DNA of 28,791 nucleotides, from IMG/VR virus record IMGVR_UViG_2534682161_000017, positions 1-28,791 of that record. One strand, 5' to 3'. The position numbers are program-made. Numbering within the stretch: position 1 is the stretch's first letter; the number at the start of each line of letters is the position of its first letter. Source of the DNA: a virus (Duplodnaviria; Heunggongvirae; Uroviricota; Caudoviricetes). Shown piece by piece: positions 18,001 through 21,000 of this stretch.

Positions 18001-21000
18001 AGATTGCTGCGCAGAACTGATGAGCGATCCGAATAGCTCAATGTACGAGGAAGAAGACGATGAATGAGTTAATAAATGGCAATGCTATCAAAATGACAAG
18101 CATTGAAATCGCTGAGTTGGTGGGTAAGCGTCAAGACAATGTGAAACGTACCATCGAAACGCTGGCTAAAAATGGTGTTATCCGGCTTCCTCAAATTGAG
18201 GTTTCCGAAAGAATCAATAACTTAGGGTTCAATGTTCAGTACGAGCATTACGTCTTCGAAGGCGAACAAGGTAAGCGAGACAGTATTGTCGTTGTTGCCC
18301 AGTTGTCGCCGGAATTCACCGCTCGTCTTGTTGACCGTTGGCGAGAGCTTGAGGAAACTGCGGTTAATATCCCCAAAACGCTACCAGAAGCGTTGCGCCT
18401 TGCTGCTGATCTTGCTGAGCAGAAAATGCAACTGGAAAACCAGCTCGCAATTGCCGCACCTAAAGTTGAGTTTGCCGATCGCGTTGGCGAGGCCAGCGGA
18501 ATTTTGATTGGAAACTTTGCAAAGGTTGTCGGTATTGGTCCAAACAAACTGTTTGCGTGGATGCGTGATCACAAAATCCTTATTGCTTCAGGTTCCCGGC
18601 GCAATGTGCCAATGCAGGAATATATGGATCGCGGCTATTTCACAGTGAAAGAAACAGCGGTCAACACAAATCACGGAATACAGATATCGTTCACCACAAA
18701 AATCACCGGGCGTGGTCAACAGTGGCTGACCAGAAAGCTGCTCGATAACGGAATGCTGAAAGTAACAGGGGAGGCTGCTTAATGGCTAACCTACGCAAAG
18801 AAGCGCGCAACAGAGAATGCCAGGTACGTATTTACGGCGTATGCAATGGCAATCCTGAAACTACAGTTCTGGCACATTACCGGATGGCTGGAATTTGCGG
18901 AACGGGAATGAAACCTGACGACCTGATCGGCGCATGGGCTTGTAGTGACTGCCACGCGGAGATCGACCGACGCACAAGGATTCTCGACAACAAAGACGCC
19001 AGACTTTACCACCTCGAAGGCGTGATAAGGACGCAGGCGATACTGCTGAAGGAGGGGAAGATTAAGCCATGAACGAATATCAGTTTGTGCTTCCATACCC
19101 GCCGTCGCTGAACACCTACTGGCGAAGACGGGGGAGTCAATACTACATCAGCGATAAAGGCCAGAAATACCGAAAAGACGTTCAGCAAATCATCCGCCAA
19201 CTTAAGTTAGACATTTTCACCAAATCACGACTCCGCATCAAAGTCATCGCAGACGTTCCAGACTCCCGCCGCCGCGACCTCGATAACATCCTGAAGGGTT
19301 TACTCGACTCCCTTATCCACGCCGGATTTGCGGAAGACGACGAGCAATTCGATGACATTCGCGTAATTCGTGGTGTGAAAGTACCAGGCGGACGGCTTGG
19401 AATAAAAATCACCGAACTGGAGAACGTATGAACGCCACAATTCAAACGATACCAGAGCTTCTTATCCAGACACGAGGCAATCAGACCGAAGTGGCGAGGA
19501 TGCTTTCCTGCGCAAGAGGAACAGTGCTCAAGTACAACCGAGACAGCAAAGGCGAGCGTCACGTAATAGTTAACGGCGTCCTGATGGTCAAACAGGGCAA
19601 AAGGGGAAGGCCATGAGACTAGAAAGCGTAGCTAAATTTCATTCGCCAAAAAGCCCGATGATGAGTGACTCACCACGGGCCACGGCTTCTGACTCTCTTT
19701 CCGGTACTGATGTGATGGCTGCTATGGGGATGGCGCAATCACAAGCCGGATTCGGAATGGCTGCATTCTGTGGTAAGCACGAACTCAGCCAGAACGACAA
19801 ACAAAAGGCTATCAACTATCTGATGCAATTTGCACACAAGGTATCGGGGAAATACCGGGGTGTGGCAAAGCTCGAAGGAAATACTAAGGCAAAGGTACTG
19901 CAAGTGCTCGCAACATTCGCTTATGCTGATTATTGCCGTAGTGCCGCGACGCCGGGCGCAAGATGCAGAGATTGCCACGGTACAGGCCGTGCGGTTGATA
20001 TAGCCAAAACAGAGCAGTGGGGGAGAGTTGTTGAGAAAGAGTGCGGAAGATGCAAAGGTGTCGGCTATTCAAGAATGCCAGCAAGCGCTGCATATCGCGC
20101 TGTAACGATGCTAATCCCAAACCTTACCCAACCCACCTGGTCACGCACTGTTAAGCCGCTGTATGACGCTCTGGTGGTGCAATGCCACAAAGAAGAGTCA
20201 ATCGCAGACAACATTTTGAATGCGGTCACACGTTAGCAGCATGATTGCCACGGATGGCAACATATTAACGGCATGATATTGACTTTTTGAATAAAGTTGG
20301 GTAAATTTGACTCAACGATGGATAAATGCACTCGTTAAATAAAGCCCTGAGTTAATAGCTCGGGGCTTTTTGCGTTTTAAGCACGACCTTTCTGAAAGCG
20401 CATCAAACCAAATACCAGACAGACCAAAATAATCACCTTATCCGCTGTGGCTACGGTGCGGTGTGCTTTGCATAAAAGAAAACCAGCTCAATGGCTGGCT
20501 TCGTGAAAGCGGGTGGCAAGAGGTTGCGCTAACAACCTCATGCCGTTTTGCCCGTGCATATCGGTCACGAACAAATCTGATTACTAAACACAGTAGCCTG
20601 GATTTGTTCTATCAGTAATCGACCTTATTCCTAATTAAATAGAGCAAATCCCCTTATTGGGGGTAAGACATGAAGATGCCAGAAAAACATGACCTGTTAG
20701 CCGCCATTCTCGCGGCAAAGGAACAAGGCATCGGGGCAATCCTTGCGTTTGCAATGGCGTACCTTCGCGGCAGATATAATGGCGGTGCGTTTACAAAAAC
20801 AGTAATCGACGCAACGATGTGCGCCATTATCGCCTGGTTCATTCGTGACCTTCTCGACTTCGCCGGACTAAGTAGCAATCTCGCTTATATAACGAGCGTG
20901 TTCATCGGCTACATCGGTACTGACTCGATTGGTTCGCTTATCAAACGCTTCGCTGCTAAAAAAGCCGGAGTAGAAGATGGTGGAAATCAATAATCAACGT

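What the first reader, a model, noticed from the sequence alone, without database searches (positions are those of the whole stretch)
20279..20560. Lambda-type Q and pR' with a short, different early terminator
pR' and the first ~25 nt downstream match lambda as I recall it. A strong hairpin plus U-tract then appears at 20344..20378, predicting a short 6S-like RNA of roughly 60 nt. A second imperfect hairpin with a T-run lies around 20510..20550. Q must read through both to reach S.
Basis: partly seen in the sequence, partly recalled or inferred. Interest (0 to 1): 0.4.

Follow-up and report, generated by a model that had tools for sequence, protein, structure and literature searches.

The report
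P22/HK022-type late terminator after lambda pR'
This is the ordinary late-gene switch of a lambda-like phage: a constitutive promoter whose transcripts stop after about 60 bases at a strong terminator until the phage Q protein lets RNA polymerase read on to the lysis genes. The same short terminator is already annotated in phage P22 and is present in HK022, HK97 and hundreds of E. coli prophages.

Summary
Window 19613-20236 encodes a Q protein 206/207 identical to lambda Q. pR' (-35 at 20279, -10 at 20302-20307) matches lambda at 27 of 29 bases, and the AACGAT pause element sits at the inferred +1 (20314). A 13-bp hairpin (20341-20369, -18.7 kcal/mol, z -4.2) followed by UUUUUGCGUUUU predicts an RNA of about 60 nt.

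It differs only from lambda. A 162-bp cassette (20337-20498) replaces lambda 44610-45014, which holds the 6S body and tR'. The cassette is 93-99% identical in HK544, HK022, HK97, HK140, the mEp phages and Sf101. P22 carries it at 77% identity, and its record annotates the homologous hairpin as 't late or tR', antiterminated by gene 23 protein'. 545 of 5426 complete E. coli genomes carry a match. So this is already known.

The second hairpin (20509-20551) is real and shared with lambda, but it is not a convincing terminator. It has only four U, the U-run is lost in the P22 type, and one stem position is usually mismatched.

Side finding: directly after the terminator lies an 80-nt conserved RNA-like element (20392-20471). 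It is a covarying helix closing a 40-43-nt C-rich, G-poor loop. It has no Rfam match and follows this terminator behind several different late promoters and two Q families. Its function is unknown.

The parts
19613..20236 (+). Gene Q, the lambda-type late antiterminator (207 aa)
   Evidence: ORF list. Pfam PF03589 Antiterm, E 1.3e-57. 206/207 identical to lambda Q and 202/207 to P22 gp23.
20279..20307 (+). Late promoter pR' (-35 TTGACT at 20279-20284, -10 TAAATT at 20302-20307). The Q-binding element / qut lies between the hexamers (about 20285-20305).
   Evidence: Promoter scan. 27/29 identical to lambda pR'. The HK544 record annotates the equivalent bases as pR' and Qut. Placement of the QBE between -35 and -10 is from PMC4914094.
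20314..20319 (+). Inferred transcription start (+1 = 20314) and the -10-like sigma70 pause-inducing element AACGAT
   Evidence: Identical to lambda. The P22 record marks the equivalent base as 'similar to phage lambda P late RNA 5' nt'. The start site is inferred by homology and was not measured.
20341..20378 (+). tR' (t late): intrinsic-terminator hairpin 20341-20369 plus U-tract 20370-20378. It ends a predicted RNA of about 60 nt (20314 to about 20375).
   Evidence: Terminator scan: 13 pairs, 6 GC. dG -18.7, z -4.2. Homologous to the terminator annotated in P22 BK000583.1 and in phage Emek. The upper stem changes in a compensatory way among variants: GAG/CTC, GCA/TGC, GAGG/CCTC, CCGGG/CCTGG.
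20337..20498 (+). 162-bp mosaic cassette that replaces lambda 44610-45014 (405 bp holding the 6S RNA body and lambda tR')
   Evidence: blastn against lambda gives two flanking matches and nothing between them. The cassette is found in 99 phage records, 93-99% identical in HK/mEp phages and about 77% in P22-like phages.
20392..20471 (+). Conserved structured element after tR' (side finding). Helix 20395-20404 / 20460-20469 closes a C-rich, G-poor loop that contains the conserved blocks CCAGA and GTGGCNACGG.
   Evidence: The covariance model hits 50 loci and does not hit lambda. 90.8% of cells are paired, 6 of 11 helix pairs change on both sides, 0 of 500 shuffles reach the score, and slid controls give 24-48%. 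The loop is 40-43 nt with at most 4 G in all 29 variants. No Rfam match.
20479..20502 (-). Hairpin with a U-tract on the minus strand. It looks like a terminator for leftward transcription. On the plus strand it has no U-tract.
   Evidence: Terminator scan, minus strand. Minus-strand dG -11.9, z -3.7, against plus-strand -9.1, z -2.5. The stem is kept with different loops in the P22, ES18 and other types (CCAGC/GCTGG, CCCAGC/GCTGGG, CCCGC/GCGGG), and the A-run is kept.
20509..20551 (+).
   Evidence: Lies inside the 98.8% match to lambda 45015-45516. dG -20.9, z -3.7. The variant table shows frequent mismatch at stem position 5 and loss of the T-run in the P22 type.
20670..20993 (+). Holin gene S, the first late gene reached after antitermination
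   Evidence: ORF list. 98.8% DNA identity to the lambda S region. Annotated as holin in HK544, HK140 and HK022.

Best explanation
The region is the late-gene switch of a mosaic P22-like/lambdoid coliphage. It combines lambda-type Q and pR'/qut with the P22/HK022-type early terminator tR' (t late).

pR' fires constitutively from about 20314. RNA polymerase carrying sigma70 pauses at the AACGAT element. Without Q, it terminates at the hairpin 20341-20369 and its U-tract, releasing an RNA of about 60 nt. When Q has accumulated, it binds the QBE between the promoter hexamers, joins the paused complex and makes it terminator-resistant. Transcription then runs through tR' and the roughly 300-nt leader into S, R, Rz and the morphogenetic genes.

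Shown here: the sequence features, their homology and their conservation. Inferred from lambda/P22 knowledge: the start site, the pausing, termination efficiency and Q read-through.
For: - Q is 206/207 identical to lambda Q and carries PF03589.
- pR' is 27/29 identical to lambda, with an identical pause element.
- The hairpin and U-tract are thermodynamically strong.
- The homologous P22 hairpin, at the same distance from the annotated start, is annotated 't late or t R'; antiterminated by gene 23 protein action'. Emek and ES18 annotate it as a terminator too.
- Lambda Q and P22 gp23 are stated to be interchangeable (PMC8022706).
- Short antitermination-regulated RNAs from the late promoters of lambda, 21, phi80, 82 and P22 are cited in PMC7547250.
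- The Q mechanism (QBE, -10-like pause, bypass of intrinsic and Rho-dependent terminators) is summarised in PMC4914094.
- The hairpin is kept, with compensatory upper-stem changes, behind lambda-type, ES18-type and two other late promoters.
- The same segment matches in 545 of 5426 complete E. coli genomes.
Against: - No transcript data were available for this phage or for the HK-type cassette. The start site and 3' end are predictions.
- The initial transcribed region differs from lambda at +9, +11, +15 and +17, which is around the lambda pause site. Pause position and Q loading may therefore differ in detail.
- The right arm of the hairpin was fixed by my search pattern. Only the upper stem gives independent covariation evidence.
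Confidence: 0.9

Rival explanations
1. The short pR'-tR' RNA is itself a trans-acting regulatory small RNA, like StxS of Stx phages. On this view the terminator mainly serves to produce it. This does not exclude the main explanation.
For: StxS arises exactly this way and binds Hfq, and its authors propose that antiterminated phage promoters are a general source of sRNAs (PMC7547250). The predicted RNA ends in a strong hairpin with a U-rich tail, preceded by an A/U-rich stretch (UUAAAUAAA).
Against: The 27 nt ahead of the hairpin are constrained by the promoter-proximal pause element. They differ completely in the ES18-type and other promoter types that share the terminator, so no conserved seed exists across the family. 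There are no Hfq-binding or target data, and no Rfam family matches.
Confidence: 0.15
2. The first hairpin is a bidirectional terminator. It also ends a leftward small RNA made from within 20380-20470, forming a convergent sRNA pair like STnc100/AsxR in Stx phages.
For: Convergent sRNA pairs 3' of pR' are documented in lambdoid prophages (PMC4104026). Rfam recovers AsxR and STnc100 in 933W. In the window the hairpin is preceded by AAATAAA, which reads UUUAUUU on the minus strand.
Against: No promoter-like site was found on the minus strand in 20380-20480. The minus-strand U-run is absent in the 'AGTCATTC' promoter context. G.U pairs outnumber A.C pairs 13 to 5 in the adjacent helix, favouring a plus-strand RNA. 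AsxR, AgvB and STnc100 models do not match the window.
Confidence: 0.08
3. The second hairpin (20509-20551) is a second intrinsic terminator that Q-modified polymerase must also pass.
For: The stem-loop is stable (dG -20.9, z -3.7) and is followed by GUUUUG. It is conserved in lambda. From memory only, unverified here: tandem terminators in the lambda late leader were reported by Luk and Szybalski (1983).
Against: The terminator scan does not detect it. It has only four U. The P22-type leader has UGAUCUG instead. Stem position 5 is mismatched in most variants (A.C, G.A, U.C, A.A), with no tendency to restore pairing.
Confidence: 0.15
4. The hairpin and promoter are chance matches with no function.
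For: Counts of consensus promoter-like and terminator-like sites in 18500-22500 do not exceed shuffled expectation.
Against: The sequence is homologous to the lambda and P22 control regions. The fold z-score is -4.2. The element is conserved across about 100 phage records and 545 E. coli genomes.
Confidence: 0.01

Closest known systems
Phage P22 P late / t late (tR'), antiterminated by gp23 (GenBank BK000583.1 annotation)
   Same: - The Q-type protein is 98% identical.
- The promoter, qut and initial transcribed sequence are the same.
- The terminator hairpin sits at the same distance from the annotated start (about +31 to +59).
- The whole 162-bp cassette is homologous (about 77%), including the structured element and the minus-strand hairpin.
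   Different: - The loop of the terminator differs by a few bases.
- The interior of the downstream element is a different sequence type (type B against type A).
- The downstream holin leader is P22 gene 13-type rather than lambda S-type.
HK022 / HK97 / HK544 / HK140 / mEp coliphage Q-pR'-S intervals
   Same: Essentially the same sequence: 96-99% identity over window 20230-20680, with pR' and Qut annotated in several records.
   Different: Only point differences. For example, HK022 has a U.U mismatch in the terminator stem (CTCTGGGC) and a mismatch in the minus-strand hairpin.
Lambda pR' - 6S RNA - tR'
   Same: Same Q (206/207), same promoter and QBE (27/29), same pause element and same S leader from lambda 45015 onward. 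Same logic of a constitutive short transcript extended by Q.
   Different: The lambda RNA terminates at +193 (PMC4914094) against about +60 here. Lambda 44610-45014 has no detectable similarity to the cassette and no match to the structured-element model.
StxS (Stx phage pR'-tR' short RNA) and the STnc100/AsxR/AgvB sRNAs 3' of pR'
   Same: These are small RNAs generated at or just downstream of an antiterminated late promoter in lambdoid prophages (PMC7547250; PMC4104026).
   Different: The Q type is different and the sequences are unrelated. Rfam models AsxR and STnc100 hit 933W but nothing in the window.

Membership tests
Lambda-type Q-dependent late promoter (pR'/qut) | A Q protein of the lambda family is encoded immediately upstream | tested here: met
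   PF03589, E 1.3e-57. 206/207 identical to lambda Q.
Lambda-type Q-dependent late promoter (pR'/qut) | A sigma70 promoter with the Q-binding element between the -35 and -10 hexamers | tested here: met
   27/29 identity to lambda pR'. The QBE shows 2 mismatches to the lambda Qut string quoted in the mEp234 record (TATTGAATAAAATTGGGTAAA). The HK544 annotation agrees.
Lambda-type Q-dependent late promoter (pR'/qut) | A -10-like pause-inducing element at the start of the transcript | tested here: met
   AACGAT at 20314-20319, identical to lambda.
Lambda-type Q-dependent late promoter (pR'/qut) | A sigma70-dependent pause at +16/+17 and Q loading onto the paused complex | not testable with these tools
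   Needs in vitro transcription. The sequence at +15 and +17 differs from lambda.
Intrinsic (Rho-independent) terminator | A G+C-rich hairpin immediately followed by a U-tract | tested here: met
   13-bp stem with 6 GC pairs, followed by UUUUUGCGUUUU.
Intrinsic (Rho-independent) terminator | The hairpin is maintained by compensatory change in relatives | tested here: met
   Upper-stem variants GAG/CTC, GCA/TGC, GAGG/CCTC and CCGGG/CCTGG. The lower stem was fixed by the search pattern and is uninformative.
Intrinsic (Rho-independent) terminator | RNA release at the U-tract in vitro or in vivo | not testable with these tools
   No transcript data were available.
P22-type t late / tR' | Sequence homology to the annotated P22 terminator, at the same offset from the late start | tested here: met
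   Alignment A1. The P22 annotation places the start at locus position 878 and the terminator at 908-936, equivalent to window 20314 and 20344-20372.
Lambda 6S RNA / lambda tR' | Sequence homology to lambda 44610-44780 | tested here: not met
   No blastn match (word size 7, E<=1e-3) between window 20337-20498 and lambda 44610-45014.
AsxR/AgvB anti-sRNAs and STnc100 (sRNAs 3' of pR') | A match to Rfam RF02703 / RF02076 | tested here: not met
   No match in the window at E<=1 for 19000-22000 or at the gathering score for the whole window. Positive control in 933W: AsxR 88 bits, STnc100 208 bits.
Second intrinsic terminator (hairpin 20509-20551) | A hairpin followed by a conserved U-tract | tested here: inconclusive
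   The hairpin is present. The U-run has only four bases and is lost in the P22 type, and stem position 5 is usually mismatched.

The most novel reading that the evidence does not exclude
The 80-nt element directly after tR' (20392-20471) is an undescribed cis-acting RNA of lambdoid late leaders. It travels with the terminator as one module. A covarying 10-11-bp helix presents a 40-43-nt C-rich, G-poor loop.

My preferred guess is that the loop is a Rho-loading (rut-like) site. It would kill transcripts that leak through tR' without Q, keeping the holin gene silent in lysogens. Q-modified polymerase would ignore it.

Alternatives are an mRNA-stability or processing element, or a binding site for a host or phage factor.

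The probability below is for 'functional, previously undescribed RNA element'. The specific Rho reading is perhaps 0.2.
Probability: 0.5. Interest if true: 0.45.

Novelty: already known. Interest (0 to 1): 0.2.

Why it matters
As posed, the finding matters little. It is one more copy of a well-understood switch, and identical copies sit in public E. coli genomes.

Its modest value is comparative. The P22/HK022-type module places the terminator hairpin at about +28, immediately after the Q-loading pause. That makes it a compact natural template for studying how soon after loading Q protects the complex.

The side observation could matter more. The terminator and the structured C-rich element form a unit that recombines behind different late promoters and two unrelated Q families (PF03589 and phrog_753). 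It stays put when extra genes are inserted downstream. This suggests an unrecognised layer of control in lambdoid late leaders.

Tried and rejected
1. Small hydrophobic peptide on the minus strand (19 codons, VIILVCLVFGLMRFQKGRA). Rejected: it shrinks to 8-11 codons in P22 and other types.

2. The 51-aa plus-strand ORF 20463-20618, annotated 'hypothetical protein' in HK140, ECP1, mEp234 and Sf101. Doubtful: it has no start in 50 of 126 loci, and it overlaps hairpins conserved in lambda, which lacks the ORF.

3. A tRNA or tRNA remnant in the leader. ARAGORN finds none.

4. Any Rfam family, including AsxR, AgvB and STnc100. None matches.

5. Lambda carrying an inverted copy of the element (CCGTAGCCAC...GTCTGTCC). 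The local alignment score of 22 is not above shuffles (mean 17.2, max 27).

6. RNAalifold on the plain MAFFT alignment recovered the helix only partly, because the 3' arms were misaligned. This was resolved with an arm-anchored alignment and a covariance model.

7. A loose gapped pattern scanned over genome contigs returned mostly chance hits in unrelated phyla. Only six hits were real: four from further taxa (Pseudocitrobacter, Erwinia, Pluralibacter and a MAG labelled Bacillota) and two from E. coli. The chance hits served as negative controls for the model.

8. [quoted passage not shown] Juhala 2000 was not looked up.

9. The pid locus (PMC8835761) lies elsewhere in P22 and does not explain the minus-strand hairpin.

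10. The C>G skew of the loop is in the top 2% or so of 50-nt windows, but it is not unique in the window. Composition alone does not establish a rut site.
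Full report
**What is there**

The window is a mosaic P22-like/lambdoid coliphage or prophage. Its closest relatives over 25 kb are phages HZ41, IME10, CUS-3 and N7.

ORF 19613-20236 encodes a 207-aa protein with the Pfam Antiterm domain PF03589 (E 1.3e-57). It is 206/207 identical to lambda Q and 202/207 identical to P22 gp23.

Forty-two bases downstream, the promoter scan finds TTGACT-17-TAAATT at 20279-20307. The scan is not evidence on its own, because it found 2 sites where 4.8 were expected. The homology is the evidence. blastn aligns window 19603-20336 with lambda 43875-44609 at 96.7%. pR' is identical at 27 of 29 positions, and the AACGAT pause element is identical. The HK544 GenBank record annotates the same bases as pR' and Qut.

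By homology with the start marked in the P22 record, +1 is window 20314. The transcript matches lambda exactly to +8 and at 11 of 15 positions from +9 to +23. Similarity then stops.

**The first hairpin**

- Positions 20341-20369 form a 13-bp stem (6 G-C pairs, 3-nt loop) followed by TTGCGTTTTA.
- dG is -18.7 kcal/mol, z -4.2, and none of 200 shuffles fold as well.

**What it is**

blastn against lambda gives two flanking matches: window 19603-20336 and 20499-21000. The second equals lambda 45015-45516 at 98.8%. Nothing matches in between. So a 162-bp cassette (20337-20498) replaces the 405 bp of lambda that hold the 6S RNA body and tR'.

The cassette is not new:

- The 451-bp interval 20230-20680 is 99.1% identical in HK544 and 96-98% identical in HK140, ECP1, HK106, HK542, mEp234, Gally, mEpX1/X2, HK022, Sf101 and others.
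- The cassette alone is found in 99 phage records. HK97 carries it at 94% identity, and P22 and its relatives at about 77%.
- The curated P22 record BK000583.1 annotates 'P late or P R'', a qut-like site and the late RNA 5' nucleotide. At the homologous hairpin it annotates 'terminator: t late or t R'; antiterminated by gene 23 protein action to allow full late transcription'.
- Emek and ES18 also annotate the hairpin as a terminator.
- 545 of 5426 complete E. coli genomes have a match to 20279-20510. Of these, 265 cover at least 80% of it, and some are 100% identical.

**How it works**

The literature supplies the mechanism.

- Q binds a QBE between the promoter hexamers.
- A -10-like element causes a sigma70-dependent pause at 16-25 nt.
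- Q joins the paused complex and lets it bypass intrinsic and Rho-dependent terminators.
- Lambda tR' terminates at +193 (PMC4914094).
- Lambda Q and P22 gp23 substitute for one another (PMC8022706).
- Short antitermination-regulated RNAs from the late promoters of lambda, 21, phi80, 82 and P22 have been reported (PMC7547250, citing Roberts et al. 1976 for P22).

The window therefore carries lambda-type Q/pR'/qut joined to the P22/HK022-type tR'. Transcripts from 20314 should stop near 20375 unless Q is present. The start site, the pause, the termination efficiency and Q read-through are inferences from homology. I had no transcript data.

**The second hairpin**

- It exists at 20509-20551 (dG -20.9, z -3.7).
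- It lies inside the lambda-homologous S leader.
- It has an A.A mismatch and only four U after it, and the terminator scan does not report it.
- Among 29 variants, the fifth stem position is A.C, G.A, U.C or A.A in most. It is a true pair in only a few: lambda G-C, P22 A-U, and some U-A.
- The P22-type leader has TGATCTG in place of GTTTTG.

I rate it an unproven terminator. I recall a report of tandem terminators in the lambda late leader (Luk and Szybalski 1983) but could not retrieve it.

**The terminator is a shared module**

Searching IMG/VR for the terminator's right arm plus U-tract returned 119 loci. The same terminator and downstream sequence follow at least four late-promoter types:

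| Upstream context | Loci | Late regulator |
|---|---|---|
| Lambda-type pR' | 84 | Lambda-type Q |
| ES18-type promoter | 23 | Q homologues of 254-259 aa, PF03589 |
| A third type with an AATGAT pause-like element | 11 | Q homologues of 254-274 aa; PF03589 confirmed for the 274-aa example |
| A fourth type | 4 | Upstream protein matches phrog_753 'anti-termination protein Q-like' and has no PF03589 match |

From the promoter hexamers and pause-like elements I read in these sequences, the hairpin would begin about +27 to +48. That is inference.

The upper stem varies in a compensatory way: GAG/CTC, GCA/TGC, GAGG/CCTC and CCGGG/CCTGG. The lower stem was fixed by my search pattern and carries no information.

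**Side finding: a structured element after tR'**

Between the terminator and the S leader, three or more divergent sequence types keep a helix. In the window it is AAAGCGCAUC (20395-20404) paired with GGUGUGCUUU (20460-20469). It encloses about 53 nt that contain the conserved blocks CCAGA and GUGGCNACGG.

- **Helix versions:** GCACAUC/GGUGUGC, GCGCCCUA/UAGGGCGU, GCGUCCUA/UAGGACGC, GCACUCUA/UAGAGUGC and GCGCAU/AUGCGC.
- **Arm-anchored alignment:** 6 of 11 pairs change on both sides, and 0 of 500 shuffles reach the covariation score. The 3' arms were chosen by best complement, so this alignment leans towards pairing. Against that, the offset is constant at 51-55 nt.
- **Covariance model:** a model built from 13 sequences found the element in 50 loci. 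These include Pseudocitrobacter, Erwinia and Pluralibacter genomes, where a different hairpin precedes it. The model did not hit lambda or the chance-pattern controls.
- **Model alignment:** 90.8% of cells pair, against 24-48% when partners are slid. 69 cells have double changes, and 0 of 500 shuffles reach the score. Relatedness inflates such counts. I estimate only a handful of independent events.
- **Strand:** G.U pairs outnumber A.C pairs 13 to 5, which mildly favours the plus (late-transcript) strand.
- **Loop:** the part of the loop between the helix and the GUGG block is 40-43 nt. C makes up 27-47% of it, and there are at most 4 G in all 29 variants, despite sequence divergence. This C>G skew is in the top 2% or so of the window but is not unique.
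- **Position:** the element stays next to tR' whatever follows. What follows includes lambda-, P22- or 21-type holins, or inserted genes that by my reading of the sequences look Gp49-like, HNH-like and Rha-like; these were not run against any family library.
- **Known families:** no Rfam family matches it in the window, P22, ES18 or other carriers.

Its function is unknown. A rut-like back-up for tR' leak-through is my preferred guess, at low confidence.

**Other features**

- The hairpin at 20479-20502 has its U-tract on the minus strand (dG -11.9, z -3.7) and none on the plus strand. Its stem and the A-run are conserved with varied loops. It looks like a terminator for leftward transcription entering from the lysis genes.
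- ACCTTTCTGAAAGCG (20386-20400) and GGCTTCGTGAAAGCG (20497-20511) are imperfect direct repeats flanking the element plus this hairpin. Lambda has a single copy at the junction. This suggests how the lambda arrangement and this one interconvert.

**Comparison and verdict**

The element works like, and is a member of, the lambda/P22 family of Q-antiterminated late promoters with an early intrinsic terminator. It is the P22/HK022 allele, not the lambda 6S allele, because the homology test against lambda failed. It is unrelated in sequence to StxS, AsxR, AgvB or STnc100 of Stx phages. As a positive control, Rfam recovers AsxR and STnc100 in 933W, and neither matches the window.

The finding is confirmed, correctly read in its main point, and already known. 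Interest is low for the finding itself. The structured element is the only part that may be new.

Noticed in passing
window 20392-20471 (+): An 80-nt conserved element lies directly after tR'. A covarying 10-11-bp helix (20395-20404 / 20460-20469) closes a C-rich, G-poor loop of 40-43 nt that contains the conserved blocks CCAGA and GTGGCNACGG. It has no Rfam match and is absent from lambda. It is present in P22, ES18, the HK/mEp phages and in Pseudocitrobacter, Erwinia and Pluralibacter genomes.
   Followed up: yes
window 20479-20502 (-): This hairpin has its U-tract (UUUUCUUUU) on the minus strand only, so it looks like a terminator for leftward transcription coming from the lysis genes. The stem and the A-run are conserved with different loops in the P22, ES18 and other types. 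Lambda lacks it.
   Followed up: partly
L007, L013, L070, L032, L104, L109 and others (IMG/VR loci), aligned with window 20337-20475: The same terminator plus downstream element follows at least four different late promoters and two unrelated Q families (PF03589 and phrog_753). Mosaic breakpoints cluster at the left edge of the hairpin. In some loci, extra genes that look Gp49-like, HNH-like or Rha-like by eye are inserted right after the element.
   Followed up: partly
window 20386-20400 and 20497-20511: The imperfect direct repeat ACCTTTCTGAAAGCG / GGCTTCGTGAAAGCG (11 of 15) flanks the element plus the minus-strand hairpin. Lambda has a single hybrid copy (GACCTTCGTGAAAGCG) at the corresponding junction, which suggests deletion or insertion by recombination between the repeats.
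   Followed up: partly
window 20322-20330 (+9, +11, +15, +17 of the late transcript): The initial transcribed region differs from lambda at four positions. These include +15 (T to G) and +17 (G to A), at the lambda +16/+17 pause site. All lambda-type loci that carry the short terminator share these changes, P22 included. Pause position or strength may differ from lambda.
   Followed up: no
window 21483-21510 (-): The best promoter-like match in 18500-22500 (ATGACA-16-GATAAT, 10 of 12) lies on the minus strand inside Rz and points leftward through R and S. The hairpin at 20479-20502 is the strongest leftward terminator-like site downstream of it in the scan, which also listed weaker minus-strand sites at 21182 and 20826. 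It may be a chance match, since the count was below shuffled expectation.
   Followed up: no
window 20463-20618 (+): A 51-aa ORF is annotated 'hypothetical protein' in HK140, ECP1, mEp234 and Sf101. It overlaps conserved RNA hairpins, has no start codon in 50 of 126 related loci, and is absent from lambda. It is probably not a gene.
   Followed up: partly
window 21890-22740: The stretch after Rz has no long ORF and is highly mosaic among relatives: the best phage matches cover at most 69% of it. It occupies the position where P22 carries the leftward pid locus (PMC8835761), but I did not establish homology.
   Followed up: no
L222 (phage 933W) 2778-3037: Rfam finds the convergent pair STnc100 (+, 208 bits) and AsxR (-, 88 bits) downstream of stx2B. 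I used this as a positive control. It shows that sRNA pairs near pR' are recognisable when present.
   Followed up: yes
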